Notes under the pieces: model-generated
What the model saw: only the letters and a program-made list of their open reading frames with translations
Told to the model about the DNA's origin: nothing
The model's database searches: none
Position numbers and translations under genes: made by a program
Source of the DNA: an uncultured Alphaproteobacteria bacterium
Lineage (GTDB): Bacteria > Pseudomonadota > Alphaproteobacteria > Rs-D84
Direction: 5' to 3'
Length of the DNA stretch: 64,000 bases
NCBI GenBank assembly: GCA_905234185.1
Contig: CAJOGC010000003.1
Location: forward strand, 31,453-95,452
Shown: positions 16,214-60,992 of the stretch, piece after piece
Numbering within the stretch: position 1 is the first letter of the stretch
Layout of the letters: each line of letters starts with the position of its first letter

Positions 16214-17035
16214 TTATTTACCCAATGCATTCATGATTTGATCATACGGAATCGCGCCTGGGAACGCTTTTTCACCAATAACCAAGAACGGTGTTCCATT
16301 TATTTCGAAACGTTGTGCCAATTCACGAACATTCGCCATTTCGCGTGAAACGACTTCGTTTTTCATATCGGTTTTCAACTTTTCTGTATCCAAACCCGCT
16401 TCTTTTGCGAACTTCATGATGTTGCCTTCGACAATATCCGCGATTTTTTCGCTGTTTCTGTCTTCTGGTTTGTAATATTCACGGGTCATCATCATGTCAA
16501 CAAATGCCGCTGCTTTGTCTGCATCTTGCATTTTTGCTGCAATTGCTGCACGTGCCGGGCCATCGGACAACGGTCCATGGATAGAGAAGTTCTTAATAAC
16601 CACGCGAACATCGTCACGTTCTTTCAATACACGGTCCAGTTCGCCATGCACACGACGGCAGTACGGGCAGCTGAAATCTGTCCAGACAAAGATTGTCTTT
16701 GTCGCATCGCGATTACCCAACACTGGGGCGTCCGCTATCATTTTTGCCGCATTGCTACGAACATATGCACGAACTGCTTTGTTCTTTTCAGCCTGTTGCT
16801 GTTCCTGCATGTTTGTGGCCATTTCCTGCAAGATGCCCGGATTAACAGACGTCAGATAATACGGAACATACAGACGCGTCACACATGCCGCGATTATGAT
16901 AATCGACAACAGTTTGATTGATTTTTTGCAGATGAAAAATCCCATTGTTTGTTTCTTTGGGTCACCCTTGACCAGCATACCGCCGAACAAGAACAACGCA
17001 ATAGCCAACAACAGAATCAAGATTGTCCAAGTCAT
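16214..17035 (-). CDS. membrane-anchored DsbA-family thiol:disulfide oxidoreductase
   Basis: AAGGAG RBS before ATG 17033-17035. TM anchor MTWTILILLLAIALFLFGG. Thioredoxin-fold active site FSCPYCRR. Confidence 0.8.
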   Translation of the reverse strand: MTWTILILLLAIALFLFGGMLVKGDPKKQTMGFFICKKSIKLLSIIIIAACVTRLYVPYYLTSVNPGILQEMATNMQEQQQAEKNKAVRAYVRSNAAKMIADAPVLGNRDATKTIFVWTDFSCPYCRRVHGELDRVLKERDDVRVVIKNFSIHGPLSDGPARAAIAAKMQDADKAAAFVDMMMTREYYKPEDRNSEKIADIVEGNIMKFAKEAGLDTEKLKTDMKNEVVSREMANVRELAQRFEINGTPFLVIGEKAFPGAIPYDQIMNALGK

Positions 17036-20096: not shown

Positions 20097-20123
20097 TGGT
20101 TTATCACGAGGGAGAAAAATAAA

Positions 20124-22795: not shown

Positions 22796-22796
22796 T

Positions 22797-23738: not shown

Positions 23739-23754
23739 TCTTTCCTCCACCAAC

Positions 23755-24409: not shown

Positions 24410-24497
24410 TTTTTCCCCCATTGGTTAATTTATACATCCGCCAATGGTATTTTATCAAACACACACAAAAAAATATCTAGGAACGAAATAACAAAAA

Positions 24498-24517
24498 GAA
24501 CCGCCGTTCGGCGGTTC
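24498..24517 (-). terminator. intrinsic terminator of the mscS-like gene
   Basis: The minus strand reads gaaccgcc-gaac-ggcggttc followed by TTTTT. Confidence 0.65.
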
Positions 24518-24518
24518 C

Positions 24519-24548
24519 CTAATCACTAACCACTAACACTAACCACTA
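24519..24548 (-). repeat. second phased CTAAYMA array: CTAATCA CTAACCA CTAACA CTAACCA CTA(stop)
   Basis: Same motif and same position as the array at 16186-16213, between the coding end and the terminator hairpin. The last unit supplies the TAG stop codon. Confidence 0.7.
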
Positions 24549-25450: not shown

Positions 25451-27997
25451 TTACATTGCGATATCTTCACACTTTTCAACCGGTTCAGATTCGGTACATT
25501 CAACACCACGCGAATCCCACACTCCACCAAATCCACGACTGCCTTTTGTCGCACAACTTTTTGTCACAGTAGAAGAGCAGAAATGGCACACACGTGTTTC
25601 GCGGTTAAACGAAGACCACATTTCACGCGTTCCGGACGGCAATTCTTGGGTCACTCGCCCACTGGTGTTCATTGTAGAGAACCCCAGCGTCAAAACAGCC
25701 GCCACCCCCTTGGCGAAATCAGTATTTGTATCGTCGAGTTCAAACGACGCATCATTGCTTGTCTTGGATGATCCGCGTCCACCCTGGGCCAACAAACTTC
25801 TGTCCAGCCCCGTGGCAATTTCATAACTTATCGAATACGGTTCCGCCAATGGCGTACTTTCCGCAACGACACCGATTGGCGCACCATTTGTGACCGGCAT
25901 CATCTGACACATATATTGCGCGATATCCGCTGAAGCGTTTTTAGTCGCGTCCGCAACCATTTTATTATATTTGGCATTGTAATTATCCTGGGCACGCCGC
26001 AGTGCCGCCACCCCTATCTGTGTTTTTATCGAATCCAGCAAGTGTGGGAAACGCGCGGTTGTTTTTGCCGCCCGACCCATAATCTGGTCAAGATTACGAC
26101 CACTGACACAGAACTGAATTTCTGGATCGCTTTCAATCATATCGATGGTGCGATTAATCGTTCCGGCAATATTGTTAAGTTCTTCTTCGATGGTGAAAAT
26201 GATTTCTTCTTGGTTTTTCACCTTAGTATTATTTTCACGAACATGTGCCATGTAATCTTGGACCCCTATTTTACCAGCACCCAAGATACCATCACCATCT
26301 GTCACATTACCATACCCGTCACCCATTCTAATCGACCCGAACGAAATCATACCGGTAATACGATATACATCAGTGTCTTTGACCGAACGCAATGAGCCCG
26401 TTCCAATAGTATCATCGGACGCAAATCTGTTGCAGTCGGTGGTGCTGCCACATACTTCAACCATTTTGGCATTGACCAAGTTTTGACAATTCTGCAACGC
26501 GGCGTTATCGATATTCAGGTATAATCCCATCAGTATGGAATCCAAATCATCCATAGAAAATCCAGGATTGTTTGCTTTACACACAACTAACTTATCCAAT
26601 GGACAAATATCATGGATATAGTTGTAATCCATACCGATACATTGTGAAAAATCCGAACCACAACGTGTTTCATCTGTAAAGCAATCTTTCACTTCGGCGG
26701 TGCATGCATCGACACGCATTGCCGCCAATTTATCCGAAACATAGCCCCAAATTAATGGTTCCATTTTTTCACATGGATCTAATTCAACCTTGCAAAAACT
26801 GCGCGCCATTTCGGGCCGCGACAGACATGCGTCCAATGTCGCAACACCACGCCCCGCAATATCATCTGCGCATGCCTTGTGAATACAGTTGGAAATATTT
26901 GTTAAACATGATTGCCGGAAATTCGATTCCGCGTTTAATTCGGCAACCTTTAATGTCGGCGCGACCTCACGCAGGAATGCCGGCCATACCTGGTCCCGAA
27001 CCGCGACACATTTTCCAAGAACATTTTCACAAATGTTGCGCTTGGAATTCAATATATCCATGGTCGATGTCGTTATATCATAAACATCCGTTGAACTTGT
27101 ACGGGCGCGCACAGTTTTGGATGTCTTTTGCATATTTTCAGACGCAATCACGGACACACAGTTCACCCAACCCGTTCCACATGCATCATCGGTCTGCATA
27201 CACTTGCGAAATTCAACCATACATTGCCCCAGGTCGTATTTATTCGCCTCATTAAAACTGTCCCGCAACGCGGCCCGCACATCTGCATTTGCCGCCGCCA
27301 GTTCTGTATTGGCCTTGGACCTGCCCTGTGAAATACTATTTTCAAATGCCTTACAATCGGATGCTATTTGACGCGCATATAATTGATGTAAAAAATTGAT
27401 ATCTTTTGCACATGATTGCGGCATTTGATTGCGACATAAATCGTCCGCCGCCATGAACAAATTATCGCCGGTTTGGTCTGCGATAGTGTCCAAAGAATTT
27501 TCGAATGCGACATCATCAAAATCAAATGACACATCGTCCCACAACGACAACAAATCCGCCCGTTTTTGCTCTTTTGTTTTTTCGGCCGATTCGCCATATA
27601 TAACATTGCCATTTTTATCGTATTGGCGTTCACCATTAAATACAATATCAGCATTTGCACCGGCCTGGACACGTTCGACTTCGACAGTGCGTATGCGTTC
27701 GGCTTCTTCCAAAGTACTCTGAATTTCTGCAAGTTGTTTTTCCAATTCTTCATTTAAATCACTGCACGCACACGTTCCGCCATTGGCGTTATCCATTATA
27801 CAGAACTGATCCATACAACCATAATATGCGTCATAACATTCCTGGTCATAAAGACCGGTGGCATTGACACGCGCCCGAACCGTTGTCCCGTTTTGTATGA
27901 CGGACTGTTTCCGTGCAACAACCGCCGCATCAGCCCCCAGCACCAAAGCGATTGGCGCGGTTAATACAAATAATTTAAATACAGACTTTGATATCAT
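25451..27997 (-). CDS. secreted cysteine-module protein (family member B, 848 aa)
   Basis: Trimmed to ATG 27995-27997 (GGAGAG RBS), giving signal peptide MISKSVFKLFVLTAPIALVLGADA. N-terminal knot ECYDAYYGCMDQFCIMDNANGGTCAC. Modules QCMVEFRKCMQTDDACGTGWVNC and ACTAEVKDCFTDETRCGSDFSQC. Confidence 0.85.
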   Translation of the reverse strand: MISKSVFKLFVLTAPIALVLGADAAVVARKQSVIQNGTTVRARVNATGLYDQECYDAYYGCMDQFCIMDNANGGTCACSDLNEELEKQLAEIQSTLEEAERIRTVEVERVQAGANADIVFNGERQYDKNGNVIYGESAEKTKEQKRADLLSLWDDVSFDFDDVAFENSLDTIADQTGDNLFMAADDLCRNQMPQSCAKDINFLHQLYARQIASDCKAFENSISQGRSKANTELAAANADVRAALRDSFNEANKYDLGQCMVEFRKCMQTDDACGTGWVNCVSVIASENMQKTSKTVRARTSSTDVYDITTSTMDILNSKRNICENVLGKCVAVRDQVWPAFLREVAPTLKVAELNAESNFRQSCLTNISNCIHKACADDIAGRGVATLDACLSRPEMARSFCKVELDPCEKMEPLIWGYVSDKLAAMRVDACTAEVKDCFTDETRCGSDFSQCIGMDYNYIHDICPLDKLVVCKANNPGFSMDDLDSILMGLYLNIDNAALQNCQNLVNAKMVEVCGSTTDCNRFASDDTIGTGSLRSVKDTDVYRITGMISFGSIRMGDGYGNVTDGDGILGAGKIGVQDYMAHVRENNTKVKNQEEIIFTIEEELNNIAGTINRTIDMIESDPEIQFCVSGRNLDQIMGRAAKTTARFPHLLDSIKTQIGVAALRRAQDNYNAKYNKMVADATKNASADIAQYMCQMMPVTNGAPIGVVAESTPLAEPYSISYEIATGLDRSLLAQGGRGSSKTSNDASFELDDTNTDFAKGVAAVLTLGFSTMNTSGRVTQELPSGTREMWSSFNRETRVCHFCSSTVTKSCATKGSRGFGGVWDSRGVECTESEPVEKCEDIAM

Positions 27998-28031
27998 ATT
28001 CTCTCCCCTGGGCACTATGGTTTTACAAATC

Positions 28032-30257
28032 TCACAACATTTCTTCGGTGACATCATCAACGTTCAAATCTTCACAAGATTCAATTTCCTGGCAAAACTC
28101 TTTTTCGCCACCGGACATAAAGCCCATCACGCCACCGCCCAACAGACCGACAACACCACCAATTGCGGTTCCCCAACCGGGCGTCACCATCGTTCCGGCG
28201 GCCGCACCAGCAGCAGACGCGCCCGCACCGGCCTTTAACGCCGAAGTCCATTCGTCTTCGCCACCCGTTTCACAAACACGTTGCATACGGCAAATATGAC
28301 AATTTCTTAACGACGGTTCATATGACACACTGCGAATATAACTATAACTGCCCTCTGAACTGGCCGGTTTGTTTTCTTCCTGATATTTTTTCAAACAGTA
28401 TCTGCGATTAAGGTCTGTTTCTCTTTCTATTTTCAATTTATCCATCAACGATGCAAGAACCCGCTCCGCACGATTTTCTGCACTTTGATATGCGATTGTT
28501 TTTGCGCTTGCATACACACTTTCAATCAAACTATTGTGGCCCTTTAATTTTGTTTTTGATTTGCTGTATGTATCCTGGCACGCGGCAACATTAAAATCTT
28601 TCTCGAAATCGACAAAGAAATCGTCCACCGCATTATGCGCAGATTCCCGAACTGCGGACCGCAGTTTTTTACCTTCGACACTGTCTAAATCAATCCATTT
28701 TGACATATCGACATACTCACCTTCATCATCTTTGACCGCCAACAATGCGGACTCTGGCAAACAAGTCATATCTGTTCCGCACACTTTGCCCAGTTGTTCA
28801 CCAAAATAATTCAGACACCCCTGCAACAAACGATAATCCATTTGCATCAGAACTGAACTCAAAATGATATCAAACTGCGTTTCATTTTTACACGATGGAA
28901 ACATAGATTGCGGACAAAACGCAGCGATTTCCGTTGTCTTTTTACCCAAACATTCTGGTGCCGTAAAGTTAGCGCCACATTTATCGCGCAAACATTTATC
29001 GACATCATTCTGACAGAATTGCGTCCGCAAATATCCCAACTTATCACTAACCGCGGAACGAATTCCCGGAATCATTTGTTCGCACTCTGTGATAACCGGA
29101 CAAATTCCCACGGCAATATCAACATCTGTCAAACACGCGCTGTTTGTAGCAGTCGAACAGTTATCTTCCAAACATGCCTGAATCCGTGCCAAACAAGTCT
29201 GACGCGCATACCGATCGGCATATTTTGCCGCATCAACCAAAATAGACTGAGCCTCGACTTCCCAATCTTCCAACACATAGGAACGCACCGCCATACATTG
29301 ATCCAAAACATTTTCACACGCATTTGCACGACGTCCCAACAAATCCACATCTAAACAGTTCTCGAAATTAACGCCACATCCACCCTTGTCTGCGACACAT
29401 GAACGATACGCCAACAAACATTCACCACGATTATACTTGTTTGTTGTGTCCAGCATTTCCAGACGCGCCTTGCGCACCGCGGCCTCGGCCACGCGCTTAT
29501 TCGATTCCGCGTTACGTTTTTGGTCAGCCAAATACGATTCAAACGACTTACAATCTGCAACAATCTGGCGGGAATACAGAGCCTCTTCCATTTCGGCGGT
29601 ACTTCTGCATGAATTAAGGGTATAAGCGCAATAATCCGCCGCCATTGCATACAGATTGTCACCAATATCATAATCGGCACCCAAACTATCATCATCTGTA
29701 TCGCCATTACCAAGCCATTCTGCAAAACTTAACCCCGATGCCCTCGAAGATTTTTTTGCCGCATCAGATTCACCAAATACCAGGCGCGCCTTGGCCCCCA
29801 GTTGTTCGCGTTCAACACCACTGGTATACAAATTGTCCGCATCCGATTGAATTTTTTGGATTTCGTTAATTAAATCCCTGGATTTATTTATATTGTCGGA
29901 ACATGCACAACGATACCCCTCGGATTCATCAAGCAAACAAAATTCATCCATACATGCACGATACGCATCACGACAAGAACCACTGTTTTCATTACCAGGA
30001 TTATCGTTTCCACCAACCGGCCCGCCATTGCCACCGGGATTACTTGGTTGGCCGCCATCGCCACCACCGGAAACAGTTGTGCCAGTATTTGTATTTTGGG
30101 TACTATTGTTCAAATTAACCGACATATTTGAAATGCCACGAACACCCGCCATCGACACACGATTAACCCCGATACGTGCATCTTCGCCACGCGTTGTCGC
30201 CGCCGATACCATACACGGCACCGCACACAACAGTAATGCAATTACATGTATTTTCAT
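28032..30257 (-). CDS. secreted cysteine-module protein (family member C, 741 aa) with a C-terminal glycine-zipper tail
   Basis: Signal peptide MKIHVIALLLCAVPCMVSA. Knot SCRDAYRACMDEFCLLDESEGYRCAC. Modules ECLLAYRSCVADKGGCGVNFENC and FCQNDVDKCLRDKCGANFTAPEC. Tail GTMVTPGWGTAIGGVVGLLGGGVMGFMSGG. Confidence 0.85.
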   Translation of the reverse strand: MKIHVIALLLCAVPCMVSAATTRGEDARIGVNRVSMAGVRGISNMSVNLNNSTQNTNTGTTVSGGGDGGQPSNPGGNGGPVGGNDNPGNENSGSCRDAYRACMDEFCLLDESEGYRCACSDNINKSRDLINEIQKIQSDADNLYTSGVEREQLGAKARLVFGESDAAKKSSRASGLSFAEWLGNGDTDDDSLGADYDIGDNLYAMAADYCAYTLNSCRSTAEMEEALYSRQIVADCKSFESYLADQKRNAESNKRVAEAAVRKARLEMLDTTNKYNRGECLLAYRSCVADKGGCGVNFENCLDVDLLGRRANACENVLDQCMAVRSYVLEDWEVEAQSILVDAAKYADRYARQTCLARIQACLEDNCSTATNSACLTDVDIAVGICPVITECEQMIPGIRSAVSDKLGYLRTQFCQNDVDKCLRDKCGANFTAPECLGKKTTEIAAFCPQSMFPSCKNETQFDIILSSVLMQMDYRLLQGCLNYFGEQLGKVCGTDMTCLPESALLAVKDDEGEYVDMSKWIDLDSVEGKKLRSAVRESAHNAVDDFFVDFEKDFNVAACQDTYSKSKTKLKGHNSLIESVYASAKTIAYQSAENRAERVLASLMDKLKIERETDLNRRYCLKKYQEENKPASSEGSYSYIRSVSYEPSLRNCHICRMQRVCETGGEDEWTSALKAGAGASAAGAAAGTMVTPGWGTAIGGVVGLLGGGVMGFMSGGEKEFCQEIESCEDLNVDDVTEEML

Positions 30258-30401
30258 ATTTCCATCCTACAATTATCACGGTATATTTTATCAGATAAAC
30301 CCCATTGGTGCAAGGCATATTAAAAAACAACTTGCATTTTTTATTCTGTCGCAATATCATTATGCACGTCAAAAAACCTAAGAAAAATCCAAGAGATAAC
30401 T

Positions 30402-30650
30402 ATGGCAAAAGATGATGTAATTGTTTTCAGCGGTGTCATTATGGACAAATTACCGAATACGATGTTTCGGGTTAAATTAGAAAATGGACATGAAATACTG
30501 GCAACCGTGTGTGGGAAAATGCGCAAGGCGCGCATTTGGGTCAACATTGGCGAACATGTTCGTGTTGAAATGACCCCGTATGATTTGGACAAGGGACGCA
30601 TAACATTCGTTGAACGAAATCGTGCAACCCCGGATCAACCAAATCAGTAA
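30402..30650 (+). CDS. infA: translation initiation factor IF-1
   Basis: [42 protein letters not shown]...[12 protein letters not shown]. Confidence 0.95.
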
Positions 30651-30655
30651 TTTAT

Positions 30656-30679
30656 TCCCGTCGTTTGACGGGATTTTTA
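30656..30679 (+). terminator. intrinsic terminator after infA
   Basis: tcccgtc-gttt-gacggga followed by TTTTT. Confidence 0.65.
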
Positions 30680-30702
30680 TTCACTTTTTATTAAATAAGG
30701 CC

Positions 30703-30732
30703 TTGCCCGAAAATAATTTTTTTTGCTATCAT
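30703..30732 (+). promoter_or_regulatory. sigma70-type promoter with extended -10
   Basis: TTGCCC, 18 nt, TGcTATCAT. The -10 ends 16 nt before ATG 30749. Confidence 0.4.
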
Positions 30733-30748
30733 CCAAATTGGATAAAGG

Positions 30749-33190
30749 ATGAGAAAGGTACTAGCCGCAATTTTAGCGTGTTGCATTGGCATCGGTGTTT
30801 CCGATGCTGCCGTCCGTGATTCAACAACGGTCGCACGCGCGACGACAACCCGTGACGCTCGCCCACGTTCAACAAACACGGCCAATATCATTTCCCGCAC
30901 GACCGCCACCACAACTTCACAGACTCGTTCCACTGTGACGGGAACAAATTCACGCACCAAATCTAATTCGCGTAATAACACGACCGGCTCTGCCCGCGCG
31001 ACAGTGGGTCGTTCGGCGACCAACCGAACCAACAATAATACTGTGGGACAATCAAGATCGGCAATTTCCCAAGGGACATCGTCACGTGCCACAACCACGA
31101 TTGACGCGCCCCAATCGAAAACTTTTGGAACGGGATATAACACATGTCGTGATGCATACTTTACCTGCATGGACCAGTTTTGTGCATCGGCGAACGATAC
31201 ATATCGCCGATGTGTGTGTTCATCACGACTGTATGAAATACAATCAAAGCAACGCGCATTAAACCAATCCGCCGACCAATTACAAGATTTCAAGGATTTG
31301 AACATCGCTGTCATTCCAAAAACTGCGGCCGAAGTCCAGGCCATGCAACACGCCAGCCAAGGCGAAATAATAGCATCAATTGTGAAAGACAAATCGTCAT
31401 CAATGGCACAACTGGCCGGCATAAGTTCTGTTTTATCCAAAACAAAGTCAAAATCATTATCCACCGCGGGACAACTGGATATTGCCGGTGATATAAACGC
31501 GATTTGGGCAACAACCGATTTAACGTCCGGATTAAATATTTCTAACCTTAGTGGGGAAGCTTTATACAGCGCGGTTCATGCCCAATGTGCGGACATTGTT
31601 TCTGACTATTGTTCTTCTAAATCGTTATTAAACATGGTTGTTTCTGCATACAGTATGTACATCGAAAACGATTGCTCTCTTCTTGCGAACGCACTGGATA
31701 AAAAAAAGGTGTCCGCCAATGCGGCGATTCGTGAAACAGAACGCGAAATGAACACCGCAAGACAAGAAAACTATGATGCGCATAATTATTCATCTATTAA
31801 CGAATGTATTTCGATGGTCCGCCAAGACATCACCGCTGATGCGGCCTGTGGCCGGGACTTTGTCCACTGTCTGGATACAACCGGACTTTATTTGAACGCG
31901 GCAACCGGTGAGCCAATATACACATCCGCATTTTATCAACTTGGCAGTTTATTATCTCTGTCTGGTGATATATTAAACAACAAAGAAAACCGTTCTCTTG
32001 TCTTGGAATTGAATCGCAAACGTATTTTCGCGGAAAACAGTCTGGATACATGTCGTGATTTATCCAGCAGTGTTTGGGATGAATTTTTACGCCAGGCTAT
32101 TGCCGAAATATACCAGGTTCAACAAACAAAAATCCGCGAAGTAAAAAGCGAATGTCTTGATGTGATTAACCAATGCTATGACGCCCAGAACAAGTCTTTG
32201 CGCGATTTTAGCAATGTCAAAGAGCAGTTGTTATTGGGGTCGCGTCTGGAATTATCTGAAAAATTATGCGAAGAAAAATTAAACGCATGCAGCAATCTGT
32301 ATGGCGGTGGGCAAGATGGTCTGGCCGCATTAAACACAGCCATGCAAGACATCGTCACTCAACAAATTGCCCAGAATTGTTTCCAAACACTACAAGAATA
32401 TGTCCAAGAAATGTGCGCGGTTTCGGCCACCGACACCTTACATTCATATCCATATGCGTGTCGCGCATATGCACCGGGCGAACAACAATATGCCACAATA
32501 TGGTCATGCAACACCCAACAAAAACAAACATATAACAACAATGATGATTCTTACAGCACCATCACAAGGCCTTCCCAGGCTGGCATGTGCGCCAACAAAA
32601 AAAGATACACATCATGTAATGCCGGATATTATATGATGGACATGGATGGCAATATAATATATCGCGATGATTATGCCACCAACACAAGGTCTAATGTTTG
32701 TGTAAAATGCCCGGCCAAGGGGTGCCCAACACGTAATGAAAATAATGATGTTGTATATGAATCAATCTGCGGCGACGATTACATAGGCAGTTTGTATCAA
32801 AAACTTGTCCGATATGCAATCAATGCATGTATGCGTCCATCTGAAATAGAAAACCTAAACAACAACGAAACCACCGGGGGTATTCCCGGCACCCTGCTCC
32901 AGGATGTCAATGCCACCATGGATATACTAAGGGTTTCTATGGCATCTTCGCTGAAATCAGAATGTGAAAGACTTGGTGGATATTGGATGTCGTCACAGTG
33001 GGATAAATCGGTTGAGGAAACAACAGGAATTACCGTATTGCAACAGTTTTATAACGAAACTGGGGCAAATAAAAAGTGGGGCTATTGCGCCGATCCTGAT
33101 ACAGTTGCTGAATTCTATACGGGCAAGTCCCAAGAGGACGACACCGATTCAGAAAATCCAGAAGATCCACAAAGCGACTTGAACCCATAA
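30749..33190 (+). CDS. secreted cysteine-module protein (family member D, 813 aa)
   Basis: Signal peptide MRKVLAAILACCIGIGVSDA. A ~100-aa R/T/S/N-rich tract. Knot TCRDAYFTCMDQFCASANDTYRRCVC. Module ECISMVRQDITADAACGRDFVHC. Confidence 0.85.
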   Translation: MRKVLAAILACCIGIGVSDAAVRDSTTVARATTTRDARPRSTNTANIISRTTATTTSQTRSTVTGTNSRTKSNSRNNTTGSARATVGRSATNRTNNNTVGQSRSAISQGTSSRATTTIDAPQSKTFGTGYNTCRDAYFTCMDQFCASANDTYRRCVCSSRLYEIQSKQRALNQSADQLQDFKDLNIAVIPKTAAEVQAMQHASQGEIIASIVKDKSSSMAQLAGISSVLSKTKSKSLSTAGQLDIAGDINAIWATTDLTSGLNISNLSGEALYSAVHAQCADIVSDYCSSKSLLNMVVSAYSMYIENDCSLLANALDKKKVSANAAIRETEREMNTARQENYDAHNYSSINECISMVRQDITADAACGRDFVHCLDTTGLYLNAATGEPIYTSAFYQLGSLLSLSGDILNNKENRSLVLELNRKRIFAENSLDTCRDLSSSVWDEFLRQAIAEIYQVQQTKIREVKSECLDVINQCYDAQNKSLRDFSNVKEQLLLGSRLELSEKLCEEKLNACSNLYGGGQDGLAALNTAMQDIVTQQIAQNCFQTLQEYVQEMCAVSATDTLHSYPYACRAYAPGEQQYATIWSCNTQQKQTYNNNDDSYSTITRPSQAGMCANKKRYTSCNAGYYMMDMDGNIIYRDDYATNTRSNVCVKCPAKGCPTRNENNDVVYESICGDDYIGSLYQKLVRYAINACMRPSEIENLNNNETTGGIPGTLLQDVNATMDILRVSMASSLKSECERLGGYWMSSQWDKSVEETTGITVLQQFYNETGANKKWGYCADPDTVAEFYTGKSQEDDTDSENPEDPQSDLNP

Positions 33191-33224
33191 CGAAAATTTG
33201 ATATAATGCGAACCAAGTACGAAT

Positions 33225-33881
33225 ATGAAAAAGACATTTTTATTTTCTTTACTGCTTATCACAACAGAGACAATTGCGGTGACCCCGTGGTGGGAACAGC
33301 CGACGGTTTGTCGGCAAAATCCGGCAAACTGCTATACATCAAGTGGCGCGGGATATGATTCTGGCATGTGGGATGCAAATGCTAATTGTTGGGGAATGAA
33401 AATAATTTGCGGTGATGCATTGACCAACACAAATGTGGATACGCTTGTTGGTCGTACCGAAATCGCAAGTGGAACAAACATTAATTCGGACTATGATGTC
33501 AATTTATTAAACGGTGATTGCTTTGGTGCCCGAAAAACATCAAGGGATGGAACAATGGCATCCGTTAATGGCGCGATGGTTCGCGTGTGGTGTCCCGGCA
33601 TATTGGACGTTGTCGATGCAACCGTTGAAAATGGCGAGGTCACATATGGCACGCAACCGTCATGTTCGTCGTTGGCAACCGATGGCCATGTTGCAGTTTC
33701 GAATGGGAAATGTTATGGCAAATATTATGATGCTGCGCATTACTATATTGAATGCACCGGCGAAACACCGACGATTATTGTCTTGAACGGTGCAAATTAT
33801 GAAACGGGTAATGTTGATTATCCCACGACTCAAGCGGATGCCGACACCATATTCAACCAGATGTACAACAGCATTCATTAG
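33225..33881 (+). CDS. small secreted Cys-rich protein (218 aa)
   Basis: Signal peptide MKKTFLFSLLLITTETIA, about 10 Cys. TGaTATAAT at 33199-33207 lies 17 nt upstream of the ATG. Confidence 0.65.
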   Translation: MKKTFLFSLLLITTETIAVTPWWEQPTVCRQNPANCYTSSGAGYDSGMWDANANCWGMKIICGDALTNTNVDTLVGRTEIASGTNINSDYDVNLLNGDCFGARKTSRDGTMASVNGAMVRVWCPGILDVVDATVENGEVTYGTQPSCSSLATDGHVAVSNGKCYGKYYDAAHYYIECTGETPTIIVLNGANYETGNVDYPTTQADADTIFNQMYNSIH

Positions 33882-33893: not shown

Positions 33894-33922
33894 AAAAAAC
33901 CGCCGATTCTGGCGGTTTTTTG
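33894..33922. terminator. bidirectional intrinsic terminator
   Basis: aaaaaaccgcc-gattct-ggcggtttttt between convergent genes. Confidence 0.65.
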
Positions 33923-55256: not shown

Positions 55257-55339
55257 TTTATGCTCCTTGTTCTTTATTCTACTACATAACAATATAGACA
55301 AAAACACTTCGTTTGTCAATAACAAAAAATAATTTCCCT

Positions 55340-55384: not shown

Positions 55385-56245
55385 ATGACAAAGAACCTAA
55401 TTTTTATAGCGATTCTATGCGCAGTGGTGCCGAATATTGGACGTGCGGCGTGTTCGCGTGCGAATTTAATCCGTTGCCTGGATTCCGCATGCGCGATAAA
55501 TTCGTCGTCAAATCCGGCGGCACGGTGCCAATATTGTGGGACTGCGGATGCGGGCGACCCCGATGATGCGGGACTGCGTGCGATTTCCGTTGGCACATCT
55601 TCGCGTTTTTCCATTTCCGCACGTGATCTAAAAAATGCCCCAACCGATCCGGGCGAACGTTATGTTTGGGCGGCCAGGAAATGCCTTTCCCTCATTGATG
55701 GTTGCACCGCGGAAAATGTATCGGAATTTTACGATTCATTAATAGAACAATCTTGCACTGCGGCCGGAATTAAATCTCAAATGACGGTTTTACAGAAACA
55801 ATCTGTCCGTACAAAAACTTCCACGATATGTAAATCTGAAATAACCGCATGTGTTGTCGCCGATGCCCGTTGTTCTGCACATTACACGAACTGTGCCACC
55901 GATTCAGAATTTGACAAACACTTTTCAGAATGTGCGGTCACGGTCGGCGGATGCGATCAATATTTGCCCAGCATACGCGGGGCACTGGCCGGGGCGCGCA
56001 CAAACGCCAACACCAACGCGGAATCAACATTAACGGCCATAGTCCAATCGTATCGCGACGCGCGTGAACGGCGCATGACAACTATTACAAAATCATGTGA
56101 AACGGGCGACGCACGAGACACATGCATTGCTTCCGTTTGTAATCGCAGCATGGCGAACAAATGCGATTCGGGTCATCCAGAAGAAACATCAATGGCAACC
56201 CAGTTATGCAAGTTCTATGACACAGCGTGTTCGACACTAAAATAA
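55385..56245 (+). CDS. secreted cysteine-module protein (family member E, 286 aa)
   Basis: The internal ATG gives signal peptide MTKNLIFIAILCAVVPNIGRA. Knot ACSRANLIRCLDSACAINSSSNPAARCQYC. Module ICKSEITACVVADARCSAHYTNC. Confidence 0.75.
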   Translation: MTKNLIFIAILCAVVPNIGRAACSRANLIRCLDSACAINSSSNPAARCQYCGTADAGDPDDAGLRAISVGTSSRFSISARDLKNAPTDPGERYVWAARKCLSLIDGCTAENVSEFYDSLIEQSCTAAGIKSQMTVLQKQSVRTKTSTICKSEITACVVADARCSAHYTNCATDSEFDKHFSECAVTVGGCDQYLPSIRGALAGARTNANTNAESTLTAIVQSYRDARERRMTTITKSCETGDARDTCIASVCNRSMANKCDSGHPEETSMATQLCKFYDTACSTLK

Positions 56246-56262
56246 ATGGGCATAAGTAAGAT

Positions 56263-57822
56263 ATGATCTTGAAAAAAATTATCTTTCACGAAAACCTTTG
56301 TAGCGCAATTGTTGCGATACTGGCGATTATGCCGAATGCGAATGCGGCAAATGTTGTTCCACGCTCTCAACAGTCTGCGAATCGTGTATCTGCAACGCGT
56401 CCAACCATGGCGGCAACCCGCATGCCGACAATGACAACCAGTATAAATACATCTGCATCCACCGTGTCGACCACGCCGGAATCCCAACCCGTGACATCGG
56501 AACAAACAGACCCCGAATCAGAACCCACAACCGATTTTGTGGAACCGGTCACAATCGAAAACAAATCATCACAATTTAGTTCGGAACTGACGACAAAATC
56601 CGCATCTGGATCCGACACATCTGCATCGGCATTGGCTGACCTGGTCCGGGCCCAGCGTGCGGCACTGGATGCGTCTGATGCGATTGCGGCGGCGGGCACA
56701 ACAACCGGCACCGCATCGGGGACCGGTGCAAACAATTGCGACACAATGTTGCGTAAATGCATGACGGAAAAATGTGGAACAAACTTTGTTAAATGCACAC
56801 TGGATACCGACACAACATTCGGCGACAAATTGGACACATGTCGCCGCACGACGAATTGTACCGGACACGAATATCAACTTCTTGCGCCGGAAATAAAGGC
56901 CGATCGTGATTTCAATGCAAAGATTGCGAACTATAACGCAACAATTGATTGTGGTAATAATTACAATTCATGTATCGTGGCCCAGTGTGGTGCAACCTAT
57001 TCCAAATGCCTTGGCAAAGGTGCGGGTGACGACGCGATTAAGCAATGTGAATCGATTGCAAAATCGTGCACCGAATACGATTCTGGTTTGGCTATGCGCG
57101 CGATGGGTGTGTTTGGCGAACTGCGCCAGGGTGCCGAACGGCAAATCGCCGCGGACGAACAAAAACTTTATGCTCTGCGTGAACAAATGCGCTCTGTATG
57201 CACACGTTTGGGGGCAATGTTTGATGAACGCAGTCTGGATTGCGTTTACACTGTGAATTTCCGCGCGGGCGATGACGCAACACTTTACGCATCGAAAAAA
57301 TTATATGCCGGTGGCACATTTGATTGCACACCGAATTGGTTTGGTATCGACATAACAACATTCCGCGAAAACGCACTGCGTACGGATCGCGAACAGAAAT
57401 CTGCATCATCGGCCATGCTGGGTTCCGGCCTGGGCCAGGCGGTTGGTGCATTAACATCCGGCGCAATCGATCGTGCGGTTGCGCGCAGCACGGCGGATAA
57501 TGCACTGAAAGACGCAATTGCGGATTGTATCGAAAACGGTGTGGATGAAAGAACCGGTAAAAAAATGACCGAATCCGATTGTCGCGCAAAAATCGGTGGC
57601 ACAAGCACAAAGACAAACACGCTTCCAAATGACATCGAAACAACATTAAATGATATCCAGACTCGTCAAAATGAAGAAATCGAAAATATGGAAATCCCAG
57701 TTGAAGGTGTGACTGACGAACAACTTGATGATATCATAAAAGCTCCAGTAGTACCGGCTTCAGCGTCTGGCGGTTCATCCGAAACGTCCACCGATCCAAA
57801 TAAAAAACAAAGCAACGAATAA
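56263..57822 (+). CDS. secreted cysteine-module protein (family member F, 519 aa)
   Basis: Signal peptide ...AIVAILAIMPNANA. R/S/T-rich tract. NCDTMLRKCMTEKCGTNFVKC and DCGNNYNSCIVAQCGATYSKC. It starts 17 nt after gene E. Confidence 0.8.
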   Translation: MILKKIIFHENLCSAIVAILAIMPNANAANVVPRSQQSANRVSATRPTMAATRMPTMTTSINTSASTVSTTPESQPVTSEQTDPESEPTTDFVEPVTIENKSSQFSSELTTKSASGSDTSASALADLVRAQRAALDASDAIAAAGTTTGTASGTGANNCDTMLRKCMTEKCGTNFVKCTLDTDTTFGDKLDTCRRTTNCTGHEYQLLAPEIKADRDFNAKIANYNATIDCGNNYNSCIVAQCGATYSKCLGKGAGDDAIKQCESIAKSCTEYDSGLAMRAMGVFGELRQGAERQIAADEQKLYALREQMRSVCTRLGAMFDERSLDCVYTVNFRAGDDATLYASKKLYAGGTFDCTPNWFGIDITTFRENALRTDREQKSASSAMLGSGLGQAVGALTSGAIDRAVARSTADNALKDAIADCIENGVDERTGKKMTESDCRAKIGGTSTKTNTLPNDIETTLNDIQTRQNEEIENMEIPVEGVTDEQLDDIIKAPVVPASASGGSSETSTDPNKKQSNE

Positions 57823-57824
57823 CC

Positions 57825-60800
57825 ATGAAAAAAATATCAATTGCATTTTTATTTGTTTTAACAATTGTTCCGACGTCGTTCGCGAATCCGGCCGCGGTTT
57901 ATGAATGCACTGTGGACCAGTTGCAAGCGGGACCAAATGTCACTGTTGGGGCCGATTGTTCCACGCAAGACTGGGTGAAAGATTATCGTTCGATAAAAGG
58001 AACGGTTGTTAAATATGGTACAAAGAATGCAGAAAAAATTTCTTTGGTTAAAATTGAATTCCAACCGTCCAACACGAACGAAGCGCACCCATTACAGCAT
58101 ACCGCGAATCCACACTTTGCATTCTATATCAAAAAAGGTGTCGAAGGAACGATCACTTTTTCCAGAGAAGGATACGATTCCCTCACATTGTCTACAAGCG
58201 AATTCGGACCGTATGGTCGCTATGTCGAAATGAAACCTTCATCGGTTCCGGCTGATGCAACCGCGATGGCGGCATCTGATTCGCCCGCAGAAAACAAGAC
58301 CAAAACGGAATCAGGCAACACATCTTCCGGGAAAGGTTCGGCCTCCACACGTTCTTCGGGTGCATCAACAACGCAAACCGTTGCATCCACAAAACCAGAA
58401 TCCACCGTAAAACCAACCCCAGTCACCAACACGGAAACAATAACAATTTCTGGAACCGTTGTTGACGAGAATGACAACCCGATAAGCTATGCTGCGGTTA
58501 GTTATTATGACAGCACAAACACACCTCAAGGAGTATCGGCAAATGCCGATGGCAAATATAACCTAACAGTGCCTTCAAGTAATACAGATGTGACATTCAG
58601 TATACTTGGTTATGAATCACAAACAAAAAAAGCCTCAGAATTATCAAATAACCCAACAGTTAAATTAAACCTTGTCTCCGAATTATTAGACAAAACAGTC
58701 ATCGGGGATTGTGAAACGATACAAGCAAGACGAAAAACATATCATGCAACAACATTTAAATTGATTGATGGTCAATGCGTACCTGATAAATGCATAAGCA
58801 ACAGGTATAAACTTATTGGTAAAGGTACAATCAACGCAAAATGTGAAGACCAGGTTGGCACAACATGTCTTCCAAATGGTCCACACCAATTCGCCGGATA
58901 CAACGAATGGCGCAACGAGACACTTGTGTGCAAGCCGGGCTGCAGCGATAACTATCAACCAATATGGAGAACCGATCACTATGAATGCGAGATCAAGGAA
59001 GATTTAACTGGCACCAAATGCCCTGACGATATTTTGGGTACTATGGCGCACAAAGAACTTATCAAAAAAGCGGTTGCAAGCGATGGTGGCGAAAGTTCAA
59101 ATGGAACAATTACTGCATGCACAATCATCGAATGTATATCTGGATACCATCCTGATATGACCGGTGAATCTTGCATCCAAGATTGTAAATGTAGCGAAAC
59201 ATGGAATAAAAATACCGAACAATGCGAACCAATAACGAACGATGATTGCCACACAGAAATATCCGGGGCAACCAAGGCAACATTGGTTTGTGAAAATGAA
59301 AAATCGGTTTGCAAGGTTCAATCTTGTGACACCAAAAATGGCTATGAATTGAAAGACAACAAATGCGAATGCACCGCCGATGGATTTGAAAAAGCAAAAG
59401 ACGGCACTTGCACGCCGAAAATGGTTCTGACCCGGGATCAGTACCAAAATCAAATCAAAGACCTGGCCGACAATGCACAAAAAATGCATGACAATGAAAA
59501 CTCATTGATTAATAAAACCATAGGCGCGGCGGGCATTGGCGTGACCGGTGCCGGCGGAATGATGCTGGCACAATCGTTGTCCGAAACAAAGTCGGACACA
59601 GACGCCGAACGCACAATGACGGCCTATTTAGAAACATTCCAATGTGACTATGGCGACGGCAGACCAATCAAGGGTGGCGAAATCAATGTTCCTTTGCCGG
59701 GTGGCAACGATATGACTTTGCTTTACAGCGAATATGCACGATTGGCAAACGACCTTAAAATCCGCAAAACCGCATTGGGTTTGCGTCCCGGCATAGAATC
59801 CGAGATTGTAATAGATAAAGCCGAAACCGGTTTATATGATAACGTTGGCACCGGCATTACTGGTGGCGGATATGCGTCCATTGCACGCGCTTTACAGAAC
59901 CCTGATGGTGCGGATGCAACCATGTGGGCGGCACAAAAAGAAACCACCAAGAATACATTAATCGCCGGGGCCGTCACCGCGGGTGTTGGCGCGGTTGGTT
60001 CATTAGCCGCCAACATCGCCGTCAACCACAATGTTAAAAATGATGTGGACGAAATAAAACAACGCTACGCCGCATTAAAACATCCGTTTAAACAGATGGA
60101 AACTAAAGTTAACACCCCACAGGAAAAACCACGTACTTGTGCCACCGTATATAATGCCCGGAATATTGATGGTACATATCCAAATTGCATCTGTACTGAT
60201 TCTAATAGTCATTTCAATATCAACGATGGCTGTATACCATGTACTGGTGGCCGAACAGTTAATACTGCTAAGGACGGTTGCGAATGCACCGTTGGCCGTT
60301 GGGACGGGAAGCAATGCCGTGAAAACGTACAAAAAGCCTGTCCATTAACGGGGCTTGTAAAATCAGGCAACTGCAACTGTATAGATAACGCTGGCTCAGA
60401 CAGTGATAATAAGTGCGAATGTAAATCTGGCTATATCGAAATCGAAGGCAAATGTGAAAGAGAAGAACCGGTTGTACAACAGCCAGAACCTGCTATCGGA
60501 CAATTTGATGTTATTGTAAGTATAGATTTATCATCTGATATGTTATTCGAATCTGGCAAAGACGAATTAACACCAACCGCAAAACAAAATTTAGAAGAAT
60601 TCAAAAATTCGGCCACGAAAACTGTGGCCACCCTGCCAACAGAAACCGATTATTGTTTAATTATTGTTGGCAAAACCGATCACCAAGGATTCAAAAAACC
60701 AGACAATAAATTAAACAACAACAAGTCATTGTCCGAACGTCGCGCAATGGCAGTTAAAAACGCCATTCAAGATGCGTTTAATCCACAAAACATAAGAACA

Positions 60801-60992
60801 TATGGTGTCGCTGATACAGATTGTACACCAGCAAAACCAAGCAACAATCCATCCTGTCGCAGTGTTAATGTTCGTATGTTGGCCGGTTCATGCGAGGAAG
60901 TTATTAAAGAAGCATCGAGTAGTCCTTCTATTCTTACTGGCACAAAAATCGTAAATGAGTATGACGCGCTAAATTACCTTATAACACCGTAA
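57825..60992 (+). CDS. 1055-aa mosaic envelope protein: beta-sandwich (CarboxypepD_reg-like) segments, EGF-like Cys repeats, glycine-zipper hydrophobic segments, C-terminal OmpA-type peptidoglycan-binding domain
   Basis: Signal peptide MKKISIAFLFVLTIVPTSFA. ITISGTVVDENDNPISYAAVSYYD...ADGKYNLTV. C-x-C-rich blocks (CECTADGFEKAKDGTC, CECKSGYIEIEGKCE). IGAAGIGVTGAGGMMLA. OmpA_C-like IIVGKTDHQG...NNKSLSERRAMAVKNAI. It starts 2 nt after gene F. Confidence 0.85.
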   Translation: MKKISIAFLFVLTIVPTSFANPAAVYECTVDQLQAGPNVTVGADCSTQDWVKDYRSIKGTVVKYGTKNAEKISLVKIEFQPSNTNEAHPLQHTANPHFAFYIKKGVEGTITFSREGYDSLTLSTSEFGPYGRYVEMKPSSVPADATAMAASDSPAENKTKTESGNTSSGKGSASTRSSGASTTQTVASTKPESTVKPTPVTNTETITISGTVVDENDNPISYAAVSYYDSTNTPQGVSANADGKYNLTVPSSNTDVTFSILGYESQTKKASELSNNPTVKLNLVSELLDKTVIGDCETIQARRKTYHATTFKLIDGQCVPDKCISNRYKLIGKGTINAKCEDQVGTTCLPNGPHQFAGYNEWRNETLVCKPGCSDNYQPIWRTDHYECEIKEDLTGTKCPDDILGTMAHKELIKKAVASDGGESSNGTITACTIIECISGYHPDMTGESCIQDCKCSETWNKNTEQCEPITNDDCHTEISGATKATLVCENEKSVCKVQSCDTKNGYELKDNKCECTADGFEKAKDGTCTPKMVLTRDQYQNQIKDLADNAQKMHDNENSLINKTIGAAGIGVTGAGGMMLAQSLSETKSDTDAERTMTAYLETFQCDYGDGRPIKGGEINVPLPGGNDMTLLYSEYARLANDLKIRKTALGLRPGIESEIVIDKAETGLYDNVGTGITGGGYASIARALQNPDGADATMWAAQKETTKNTLIAGAVTAGVGAVGSLAANIAVNHNVKNDVDEIKQRYAALKHPFKQMETKVNTPQEKPRTCATVYNARNIDGTYPNCICTDSNSHFNINDGCIPCTGGRTVNTAKDGCECTVGRWDGKQCRENVQKACPLTGLVKSGNCNCIDNAGSDSDNKCECKSGYIEIEGKCEREEPVVQQPEPAIGQFDVIVSIDLSSDMLFESGKDELTPTAKQNLEEFKNSATKTVATLPTETDYCLIIVGKTDHQGFKKPDNKLNNNKSLSERRAMAVKNAIQDAFNPQNIRTYGVADTDCTPAKPSNNPSCRSVNVRMLAGSCEEVIKEASSSPSILTGTKIVNEYDALNYLITP

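What the first reader, a model, noticed from the sequence alone, without database searches (positions are those of the whole stretch)
25451..33881. Cluster of giant paralogous cysteine-module secreted proteins around infA (candidate undescribed envelope/surface system)
Three 741-848-aa proteins (B 25451-27997, C 28032-30257, D 30749-33190) each have a Sec signal peptide. After a low-complexity tract each has the same N-terminal knot, C-x-D-A-Y-x-x-C-M-D-x-F-C-x(8-10)-C-x-C. That is ECYDAYYGCMDQFC...TCAC in B, SCRDAYRACMDEFC...RCAC in C, and TCRDAYFTCMDQFC...RCVC in D. Further along they repeat a 4-Cys module of about C-x6-8-C-x3-6-C-[GS]-x4-7-C, for example QCMVEFRKCMQTDDACGTGWVNC, ECLLAYRSCVADKGGCGVNFENC and ECISMVRQDITADAACGRDFVHC. 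B and C are colinear paralogs (LYARQIASDCKAFE / LYSRQIVADCKSFE; NICENVLGKCVAVRD / NACENVLDQCMAVRS). C ends in a glycine-zipper hydrophobic tail. C, B and the MscS channel gene are separated by only 34 and 17 nt, so one transcript is likely. D is divergent and is followed by a 10-Cys 218-aa secreted protein. I do not recognise the module as any named domain. With the members at 991-2208 and 55385-60992, the family takes about a fifth of this window. My inference is a disulfide-crosslinked envelope layer or host-contact adhesins, functionally analogous (not homologous) to chlamydial cysteine-rich envelope proteins. A DsbA-like oxidoreductase lies at 16214-17035.
Basis: partly seen in the sequence, partly recalled or inferred. 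Interest (0 to 1): 0.8.

Follow-up and report, generated by a model that had tools for sequence, protein, structure and literature searches.

The report
Orphan cysteine-stapled exported protein family
Three large neighbouring genes, plus two smaller ones 25 kb away, encode a previously undescribed family of exported, mostly helical proteins built on about two dozen invariant cysteines; it is kept in fixed gene order by tiny-genome gut bacteria (Candidatus Enterousia and relatives), and its function is unknown but is most likely structural in the cell envelope.

Summary
The core observation is real. B (25451-27997, -), C (28032-30257, -) and D (30749-33190, +) are true paralogs: blastp E 4e-57 to 1e-11. 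All three have signal-peptide-like N-termini and an exact shared knot, C-x-D-A-Y-x2-C-M-D-x-F-C-x9-C-x-C. Twenty-four cysteines are invariant across 100 B/C/D-type sequences.

Each protein has about 1000 or more relatives. All named ones are "hypothetical" proteins of uncultured gut Alphaproteobacteria (Ca. Enterousia, order Rs-D84, genomes under 1 Mb). The order E<-D<-infA<- | ->C->B holds in at least 64 of 72 species-level loci.

Nothing known matches: Pfam, NCBIfam, PHROGs, PADLOC, PDB sequences, and Foldseek on two AlphaFold models all gave no significant hit.

The wider-family claim is half right. The proteins at 55385-56245 and 56263-57822 share a collinear cysteine framework with C (18/19 and 12/14 spacings; p<0.0002 and 0.002). 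Those at 991-2208 and 57825-60992 do not.

Best reading, by inference: Sec-exported, DsbA-oxidised, disulfide-stapled helical scaffold proteins of the cell envelope. A conserved core with moderate evolutionary rate argues against fast-varying adhesins. Location and function remain untested.

The parts
25451..27997 (-). B: 848-aa family member. Signal peptide, short Arg-containing linker, knot (aa 54-78), Cys-stapled helical core (about 177-530), confident mixed alpha/beta region (530-700), small 5-Cys beta C-terminal domain ending CEDIAM.
28032..30257 (-). C: 741-aa family member, colinear with B. G/N/P-rich linker, knot (aa 95-119), helical core. A glycine-zipper hairpin (aa about 666-712, nt 28122-28262) sits before an acidic Cys-x5-Cys tail.
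30749..33190 (+). D: 813-aa divergent family member. Signal peptide, about 105-aa disordered Ser/Thr/Ala/Arg repeat linker (nt 30809-31129) with near-invariant arginines, knot (aa 133-157), helical core (130-560), confident C-terminal domain (620-800) ending in a WGYC motif plus acidic tail.
27764..27838 (-). Knot of B: CYDAYYGCMDQFC-x9-CAC.
   Evidence: invariant C54, C61, C66, C76, C78
29901..29975 (-). Knot of C: CRDAYRACMDEFC-x9-CAC.
31145..31219 (+). Knot of D: CRDAYFTCMDQFC-x9-CVC.
33225..33881 (+). E: 218-aa exported protein with 9 invariant Cys, 34 nt after D. It lies next to D in 57 related loci. It is not homologous to B/C/D and is a probable co-transcribed partner.
30402..30650 (+). 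infA (IF-1), embedded between C and D. It has its own terminator-like hairpin at 30656-30673 and is probably a separate transcription unit.
55385..56245 (+). J: 286-aa miniature family member. Its 20 conserved Cys are collinear with the first 20 Cys of C (18 of 19 spacings).
   Evidence: hhalign only weak
56263..57822 (+). K: 519-aa remote family member. It has an Arg-repeat linker and a central Cys framework matching B residues 211-465.
57825..60992 (+). L: 1055-aa operon partner of J and K. It carries CarboxypepD_reg and C-terminal OmpA-like (peptidoglycan-binding type) domains. It is Cys-rich but not a family member.
16214..17035 (-). DsbA-like thiol oxidoreductase (CPYC) with two N-terminal hydrophobic segments; the presumed oxidant for these proteins.
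33894..33921 (+). Strong terminator-like hairpin that closes the D-E unit, facing clpX.
24495..24520 (-). Strong terminator-like hairpin after mscS; the first such site downstream of C-B.

Best explanation
B, C and D, with the smaller J (55385-56245) and K (56263-57822), belong to one lineage-restricted superfamily of Sec-exported, mainly alpha-helical proteins.

Proposed mechanism. After export, a periplasmic DsbA-like oxidoreductase oxidises the 30-36 cysteines. Many sit as C-x6-C pairs on one face of a helix, so neighbouring helices would be stapled by disulfides. This would give a rigid scaffold resistant to proteases and reductants.

Architecture. Signal peptide; a disordered Ser/Thr/Ala/Arg repeat linker; a 5-Cys 'knot'; a stapled helical core; a more variable C-terminal third; and, in B and C types, a small Cys-containing C-terminal domain ending ...C-x-[DE]-[IV]-x-M.

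Proposed role. B, C and D are ancient paralogs kept as single orthologs in a fixed arrangement. They most likely work together, with E, as structural components of the cell envelope. They would face the periplasm or be bound to the outer membrane. C would be held in a membrane leaflet by its glycine-zipper hairpin. J and K would be linked to peptidoglycan through their OmpA-domain operon partner L.

What is shown: homology, export-type N-termini, cysteine invariance, helical prediction, synteny, lineage restriction, and absence of known relatives.
What is inferred: disulfide formation, stapling geometry, hetero-assembly, envelope location and structural role.
For: - Paralogy.
- 24 invariant Cys in 100 sequences from the three types; at least 95% Cys in more than 24 columns of 156 representatives that are at most 50% identical.
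- C-x6-C enrichment of 4- to 10-fold over shuffles in B, C, D, J and K.
- 23 of B's 36 Cys lie in predicted helices, and B is 57% helix. D's model gives the same helical core.
- N-terminal hydrophobic signal in 119/120, 119/120 and 104/120 orthologs. A-x-A-type cleavage sites are visible in the sequences.
- DsbA-like CPYC protein nearby and syntenic in many loci.
- Fixed E-D-infA-C-B order in at least 64 of 72 loci from different species.
- Median identity to the window: B 60%, C 61%, D 51%, against DsbA 66%, MscS 63%, PGK 75%, RecO 56%.
- Core blocks are 75-97% conserved; variability is confined to linkers and the C-terminal third.
- J-K-L operon with an OmpA-like domain is conserved.
- No beta-barrel or autotransporter domain, whereas a classical trimeric autotransporter adhesin is present elsewhere in the window.
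- The family is retained in genomes under 1 Mb (PMC12306168).
Against: - No experiment or expression data.
- AlphaFold confidence is only moderate (pLDDT 74 and 70; pTM about 0.5).
- Periplasmic location is a default inference from the lack of a recognised secretion or anchor domain; an unknown export route is possible.
- D has an odd number of mature cysteines (29) and lacks 7 Cys positions present in B, so not all cysteines can be intramolecular pairs.
- The organism reportedly lacks a respiratory chain, and no DsbB or VKOR was seen in the window, so how DsbA would be re-oxidised is unknown.
- The conserved Arg repeats and the near-invariant C-terminal ...D-I-x-M are not explained by a purely structural role.
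Confidence: 0.5

Rival explanations
1. Surface-exposed adhesins or contact proteins. B, C and D would be exported across the outer membrane by an unidentified route. They would mediate attachment of these partner-dependent, reduced-genome bacteria to host or other microbial cells. The disulfide-stapled stalk would present the variable C-terminal third.
For: - A partner-dependent lifestyle is proposed for Rs-D84, with 'hypothetical membrane-bound proteins' suggested to mediate cell interactions (PMC12306168).
- The C-terminal thirds of C and D are variable, with 20-aa blocks 23-37% conserved.
- Divergent family members end in EGF-like CxCxxG[YF] modules.
- The long disordered linkers could act as spacers.
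Against: - No beta-barrel, autotransporter, lipobox or known sorting signal.
- Single-copy 1:1:1 orthology and fixed core-genome synteny.
- The conserved core evolves like housekeeping envelope proteins.
- The genome already has a 1817-aa YadA-anchored adhesin with PMP repeats.
Confidence: 0.25
2. Secreted multi-component toxin or effector set, for example a pore-former built from three helical paralogs as in tripartite ClyA-family toxins, used against partner or host cells.
For: - Three helical paralogs are encoded together.
- Some family members, including C-type, carry a hydrophobic or glycine-rich segment near the C-terminus.
Against: - Foldseek found no ClyA, Hbl or Nhe-like match, or any other at E<0.5.
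- No Pfam toxin domain in the window proteins or in 49 divergent representatives.
- Not on mobile elements: no hit in plasmid or phage collections.
- Universal core-genome position next to infA and clpXP.
Confidence: 0.08
3. Periplasmic metal- or redox-buffering proteins, in which the conserved cysteines act as ligands or redox-active thiols rather than structural disulfides.
For: - Very high and invariant Cys content.
- An anaerobic organism without a respiratory chain, where oxidative folding is not obviously powered.
Against: - The dominant spacing is C-x6-C on predicted helices, not CxxC or CxxCH. B has a single CxxC.
- No conserved His partners among the invariant columns.
- A DsbA-like oxidase is encoded nearby.
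- Proteins of 800 aa with long helices are atypical for metal buffers.
Confidence: 0.05

Closest known systems
Chlamydial cysteine-rich envelope proteins (OmcA/OmcB of the outer membrane complex)
   Same: Exported, unusually Cys-rich proteins of a host-dependent bacterium, thought to stiffen the envelope through disulfides. This is an analogy of principle only.
   Different: No sequence relationship. B/C/D are predicted to be mostly alpha-helical. Peptidoglycan synthesis genes are present in this window (PBP1a, SLT). Intermolecular crosslinking is untested.
Helicobacter cysteine-rich proteins (Hcp; Sel1-like repeat proteins)
   Same: Secreted helical proteins in which regularly spaced cysteine pairs staple helix pairs. 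This description of Hcp is from general knowledge.
   Different: No Sel1 Pfam hit and no Foldseek hit to any PDB chain. The spacing here is C-x6-C, with irregular 10-110-residue intervals rather than a regular repeat.
Twin CX9C / twin CX3C helix-turn-helix (CHCH-type) proteins of the mitochondrial intermembrane space
   Same: The 4-Cys module C-x6-C-x6-C-x6-C spans a predicted helix-turn-helix (B 256-290). It looks like a 'twin CX6C' version of the same stapling idea. The compartment is evolutionarily equivalent: the periplasm of an alphaproteobacterium.
   Different: Different spacing. The proteins are about ten times larger. No CHCH Pfam match. Pairing was not verified.
Glycine-zipper outer-membrane proteins (Pfam PF13488; SlyB/Pcp, rickettsial 17-kDa antigen)
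   Same: C-type members carry a G-x3-G-rich hairpin-like hydrophobic segment (AGAGASAAGAAAGTMV-TPGWG-TAIGGVVGLLGGGVMGF) near the C-terminus. One ortholog (P0242) has a precomputed PF13488 hit.
   Different: The window copy scores below threshold (11.5 against 25 bits). There is no lipobox. The zipper is a small insert in a 741-aa protein. B and D lack it.
Tripartite ClyA-family alpha-pore-forming toxins (Hbl, Nhe, AhlABC)
   Same: Three helical paralogs are encoded together.
   Different: No fold or sequence match. Cys-rich. Core-genome location.

Membership tests
Chlamydial OmcB/OmcA cysteine-rich envelope proteins | Sequence membership in the chlamydial cysteine-rich OMP families (Pfam or NCBIfam models) | tested here: not met
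   No Pfam or NCBIfam hit for B, C, D, E, J or K.
Chlamydial OmcB/OmcA cysteine-rich envelope proteins | Intermolecular disulfide crosslinking in a detergent-insoluble envelope complex | not testable with these tools
   Needs reducing versus non-reducing fractionation of cells.
Helicobacter Hcp / Sel1-like repeat proteins | Sel1-like repeats detectable by profile (PF08238) and an SLR fold | tested here: not met
   No Sel1 hit at E<=1. No Foldseek PDB hit at E<1 for the B or D models.
Helicobacter Hcp / Sel1-like repeat proteins | Regular repeat of cysteine pairs at a fixed period (recalled from general knowledge as C-x7-C about every 36 residues) | tested here: not met
   Spacings are C-x6-C with irregular intervals of 10-110 residues.
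CHCH twin-CX9C / twin-CX3C proteins | Two CX9C or two CX3C motifs on an antiparallel helix pair | tested here: not met
   The spacing here is CX6C. The helix-turn-helix secondary structure fits, but pairing is unverified.
Glycine-zipper OM proteins (PF13488) | Profile match above the Pfam gathering score | tested here: inconclusive
   Window C scores 11.5 bits against a 25-bit cut-off. Ortholog P0242 is listed with PF13488.
Glycine-zipper OM proteins (PF13488) | Lipoprotein signal (lipobox Cys) | tested here: not met
   The Cys position in the signal peptide is not conserved, and A-x-A sites follow it.
ClyA-family tripartite pore-forming toxins | ClyA/Hbl-type helical bundle with beta-tongue, detectable by fold or profile | tested here: not met
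Type V (autotransporter / trimeric autotransporter) adhesins | C-terminal beta-barrel translocator or YadA anchor | tested here: not met
   No such domain in B, C or D. The C-terminal 70 aa of B are polar and Cys-containing. The window's true TAA (41790-47243) is detected by the same search.
The B/C/D superfamily itself (defined here) | Collinear cysteine framework: knot C-x6-C-x4-C-x9-C-x-C, then C-x6/7-C-x18-C, then C-x6-C-x6-C-x6-C, and so on | tested here: met
   Met for B, C and D, J (18/19 spacings, p<0.0002) and K (12/14, p=0.002; hhalign 80%, E 1.4e-5). Not met for 991-2208, 57825-60992, 33225-33881, 21668-22795 and 54612-55325.

The most novel reading that the evidence does not exclude
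B, C, D and E, with J, K and L, are the parts of a so far unknown disulfide-stapled helical envelope or attachment apparatus with a new fold. It would be specific to the order Rs-D84 (Ca. Enterousia and relatives). It would be essential for the partner-dependent life of these sub-1-Mb gut bacteria. The Arg-repeat linkers and the invariant C-terminal ...D-I-x-M would be its assembly or sorting signals.
Probability: 0.2. Interest if true: 0.8.

Novelty: new variant of a known kind. Interest (0 to 1): 0.55.

Why it matters
Ca. Enterousia and the rest of order Rs-D84 are widespread in human, ruminant, horse, rabbit and bird guts. They have genomes under 1 Mb, lack standard transporters, and have an unknown way of life (PMC12306168).

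Five members of this family fill about 15% of this 64-kb window. B, C and D alone make up nearly 1% of a genome of this size, and they are kept in every related genome examined. That marks them as a central but completely unannotated part of the organism's envelope biology.

The family also offers a possible new disulfide-stapled helical architecture. It raises the question of how an anaerobe without a respiratory chain carries out large-scale oxidative protein folding. The three near-invariant sequence features (knot, Arg repeats, C-terminal D-I-x-M) give concrete handles for experiments and for annotating more than 1000 'hypothetical' proteins.

Tried and rejected
- Pfam on B, C, D, E and all neighbours: only noise for the family.
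- Pfam on the 49 longest and most divergent representatives, to look for informative domain fusions: none.
- NCBIfam, PHROGs and PADLOC: none or noise.
- Profile A1 against PDB sequences: 0 hits. E against PDB sequences: noise.
- Foldseek of model B against PDB and BFVD, and of model D against PDB: best E 0.56-1.4. The only recurring weak match was the small C-terminal beta-sheet to levivirus coat proteins, rejected as insignificant.
- tblastn against plasmid and phage collections: no hit.
- Rfam on the window: only 4 tRNAs, none in the region.
- Literature searches for the family, for Enterousia surface proteins and for CX6C motifs: nothing on these proteins.
- blastp and the A1 HMM did not link J, K or 991-2208 to the family. 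hhalign and the cysteine-framework test were needed for J and K.
- hhalign against a C-type-only profile was too shallow to help.
- Co-loss of cysteines as a guide to disulfide partners was confounded, because all losses are in the D clade. It gave only tentative pairs, C266-C323 and C376-C391.
- A lipoprotein reading of D (ILAC) was rejected, because the Cys position is not conserved among D-type signal peptides.
Full report
**1. Observation**

The four ORFs are present as described: B 25451-27997 (-), 848 aa; C 28032-30257 (-), 741 aa; D 30749-33190 (+), 813 aa; E 33225-33881 (+), 218 aa. Gene calls on public contigs that carry the identical proteins give the same lengths. A GGGGAGAG Shine-Dalgarno-like site precedes the ATG of B.

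B, C and D are paralogs. By blastp, B-C is 31% identical over 472 aa (E 4e-57), B-D has E 2e-21 and C-D has E 1e-11. The knot pattern C-x-[DE]-A-[YF]-x2-C-[ML]-[DE]-x-[FY]-C occurs exactly three times in the six-frame translation of the 64-kb window, once in each protein.

It does not occur in D; the example quoted for D has only three cysteines. The more general signature is C-x6-C. There are 10, 8 and 4 adjacent pairs in B, C and D, against about 1 expected.

E has 9 cysteines, not 10. The 34-nt and 17-nt gaps and the DsbA-like gene are correct. That gene has a CPYC site and two N-terminal hydrophobic segments.

**2. Who has it**

- Each of B, C and D has about 1000 or more significant relatives among 5.8 billion clustered proteins. 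The top 120 of each are full-length at 50-77% identity. Every name given is 'hypothetical protein' from an Alphaproteobacteria MAG.
- A 100-sequence alignment of the three types (A1) has 24 invariant cysteines.
- A profile of A1 found 1052 representatives at E<=1e-3 and 558 at E<=1e-30 among 1.84 billion 50%-identity clusters.
- In 156 of these diverse sequences, more than 24 cysteine columns are at least 95% Cys.
- Named distant representatives are again only Alphaproteobacteria, Rickettsiales or Proteobacteria MAGs.
- A scan of one genome per GTDB species gave at least 573 encoding stretches. The best 80 are all animal-gut MAGs, many named Candidatus Enterousia. Sources include rumen, Hadza and other human gut, chicken, horse and rabbit.
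- Enterousia belongs to the uncultured order Rs-D84. Its genomes are under 1 Mb, with no TCA cycle, no respiratory chain and no standard transporters, and a partner-dependent lifestyle has been proposed (PMC12306168).

**3. Anatomy**

All three proteins start with a basic n-region, a hydrophobic core and an A-x-A-type site. This hydrophobic N-terminus is present in 119/120, 119/120 and 104/120 orthologs.

The 'low-complexity tract' is not random. Across the family it is 11-159 aa long (median 91). It is enriched in A, T, S, V, R and P and almost free of D, E, L and aromatic residues. It is built from repeats resembling S-A-R-[AS]-A-T. In D-type proteins eight arginines of this region are near-invariant. 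AlphaFold predicts the region as disordered (D residues 14-127).

After the linker come the knot and a core of long helices. The B model has pLDDT 73.9 and pTM 0.52, is 57% helix, and places 23 of 36 Cys in helices. The D model has pLDDT 70.3 and the same helical core at residues 130-560. The module C259-x6-C266-x6-C273-x6-C280 spans a predicted helix-turn-helix. I read it as a hairpin stapled by disulfides, a 'twin CX6C'.

B-type and C-type proteins end in a small Cys-containing domain. Its last residues are C-x(4-8)-C-x-[DE]-[IV]-x-M-COOH in 118/120 B orthologs and 118/120 C orthologs. C-type proteins carry a glycine-zipper hairpin just before this tail. Some divergent members have a plain hydrophobic segment at that position. 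D-type proteins instead end in WG[YW]C plus an acidic tail (109/120).

Conservation by 20-aa block is 75-97% in the helical core. It is low only in the linkers and in parts of the C-terminal third.

**4. Extended family in the window**

blastp and the A1 HMM link only B, C and D. Two further proteins are members on other evidence.

- K (56263-57822): hhalign against A1 gives 80% probability, E 1.4e-5, over 190 columns, with at least 10 cysteines aligned in order to B residues 211-465.
- J (55385-56245): sequence similarity is faint (23% probability). However, its 20 conserved cysteines have spacings [7,4,11,2,48,6,16,24,6,6,6,12,6,47,8,4,7,14,6]. The first 19 spacings of C are [6,4,9,1,90,6,18,43,6,6,6,12,6,33,6,4,7,10,5]. 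Eighteen of 19 match at offset 0, and no shuffle out of 5000 reached this. Against B, 16 of 19 match (p=0.0002). K matches C at 12 of 14 spacings, at the offset predicted by hhalign (p=0.002).
- J and K also show the C-x6-C excess, and their cysteines are 93-100% conserved in orthologs.
- The same tests fail for 991-2208, which has only a knot-like start (p about 0.1). They also fail for 57825-60992, E, 21668-22795 and 54612-55325.

The superfamily therefore has five members in the window: 3207 aa, or 15% of the DNA.

Separately, exported orphan proteins of this window are generally Cys-rich (3-7%). Exported proteins of known families (PBP1a, beta-barrel OMP, SLT, BOF, the autotransporter) have 0-0.7% Cys.

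**5. Context**

The order E<-D<-infA<- | ->C->B is kept in essentially every related locus with enough flank, at least 64 of 72 by a strict count. mscS and the BOF gene follow B in only part of the loci.

Terminator-like hairpins lie after infA (30656-30673), after E (33894-33921) and after mscS (24520-24495). None lies between C and B or between B and mscS. The likely transcription units here are therefore C-B-mscS, infA, and D-E.

Median identity to the window proteins across species is B 60%, C 61%, D 51% and E 52%. For comparison: ClpX 83%, infA 88%, PGK 75%, DsbA-like 66%, MscS 63% and RecO 56%. The family thus evolves at the pace of ordinary envelope and housekeeping proteins.

J-K-L is a conserved operon. 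L carries a C-terminal OmpA-like domain, of peptidoglycan-binding type, and a CarboxypepD_reg domain. In a few genomes this operon lies within a few kb of B.

**6. Comparison with what is known**

Nothing matched. The searches are listed under 'tried and rejected'. The nearest known things are analogies only:
- chlamydial cysteine-rich envelope proteins;
- Helicobacter Hcp (Sel1-like repeat) proteins;
- mitochondrial twin-CX9C and twin-CX3C hairpins;
- glycine-zipper outer-membrane proteins;
- tripartite ClyA-type toxins.

Each fails its defining test (see the membership table).

**7. Mechanism**

Shown: an exported-type, helical, cysteine-invariant, lineage-restricted superfamily. Its three ancient paralogs are kept one-to-one in a fixed core-genome arrangement in genomes that have shed most other functions.

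Inferred, about 0.5 confidence: DsbA-dependent disulfide stapling yields rigid helical scaffold proteins that act together in the cell envelope. They would be periplasm-facing or attached to the outer membrane. C would be anchored by its glycine-zipper hairpin, and J and K would be tied to peptidoglycan through L.

Rivals:
- surface adhesins or contact proteins using an unknown export route (about 0.25);
- a secreted multi-component toxin (about 0.08);
- metal or redox buffering (about 0.05).

Unexplained by any of these: the conserved Arg repeats, the near-invariant C-terminal D-I-x-M, and how DsbA is re-oxidised without a respiratory chain.

**8. Verdict**

This is a real, deeply conserved and completely unannotated protein superfamily with no detectable sequence or fold relatives.

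By homology the family is new. As a kind of thing, disulfide-rich exported envelope proteins of a host- or partner-dependent bacterium have precedents, so I rate it a new variant of a known kind, of moderate to high interest.

Noticed in passing
window 28032-28075 (3' end of C): 118 of 120 C orthologs end ...CED[IV]NM-stop. The window copy instead reads ...CEDLNVDDVTEEML. The DNA (AAC GTT GAT GAT G...) looks like a one-base change or loss that skips the usual Met-stop (TGA TGA is visible out of frame) and adds 8 residues. This removes the otherwise near-invariant C-terminus. It may be a strain variant or an assembly error.
   Followed up: partly
window 30809-31129 (D linker); also the N-terminal regions of B, C and K: The 'low-complexity' linkers are repeats resembling S-A-R-[AS]-A-T. 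Their arginines are conserved across species (R30, R50, R60, R69, R75, R88, R97, R113 in D). I know of no comparable motif, and its function is unknown.
   Followed up: partly
window 16214-17035: A DsbA-like oxidoreductase (CPYC) is fused to two N-terminal hydrophobic segments. No DsbB or VKOR was seen in the window, and the lineage reportedly lacks a respiratory chain. The electron acceptor for large-scale disulfide formation is therefore unclear.
   Followed up: partly
window 19329-21194: A weak MotA/ExbB/TolQ-like protein (255 aa) and an OmpA/MotB-like protein (356 aa) form a pair. The pair is conserved a few kb from B in many related loci, in a lineage reported to lack flagella. It may be a Tol-like or other proton-driven envelope motor.
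   Followed up: no
window 41790-47243: A 1817-aa protein with Chlamydia-PMP repeats and a YadA-type trimeric autotransporter anchor, with a single cysteine (in the N-terminal signal region). It is the window's conventional surface adhesin.
   Followed up: no
window 51073-54501: A 1142-aa protein with a signal-like N-terminus and a weak, just sub-threshold ankyrin-repeat hit. It is otherwise unannotated.
   Followed up: no
window 57825-60992: L (1055 aa, 43 Cys) contains EGF-like C-x-C-x2-G-[YF] modules, two glycine-rich hydrophobic segments (about aa 560-585 and 710-735) and an OmpA-like end. Its central part (aa 558-734) is the most widely conserved part among related loci. Similar EGF-like modules end some divergent B/C/D-family representatives (P0381, P0391, P0398, P0408).
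   Followed up: partly
window 21668-23756: Two adjacent exported orphan proteins: one of 375 aa with 14 Cys, and one of 313-319 aa with four Gly/Ala/Thr-rich hydrophobic stretches and a coiled-coil-like segment. The 319-aa protein has tblastn matches in only 3 of the 80 related loci; the 375-aa protein has none.
   Followed up: partly
window 54612-55325 (- strand): A 214-aa exported Cys-rich protein (10 Cys) with a lysine/alanine-rich stretch (KKKATAKKAPAKKAAAKK). It is divergently oriented next to J.
   Followed up: no
window 991-2208: A 405-aa exported protein with 12 Cys. It starts with a knot-like C-x6-C-x4-C-x13-C(QY) and an Arg-containing linker, but it shows no significant profile or framework similarity to the family. 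It may be a very distant relative or a convergent form.
   Followed up: partly
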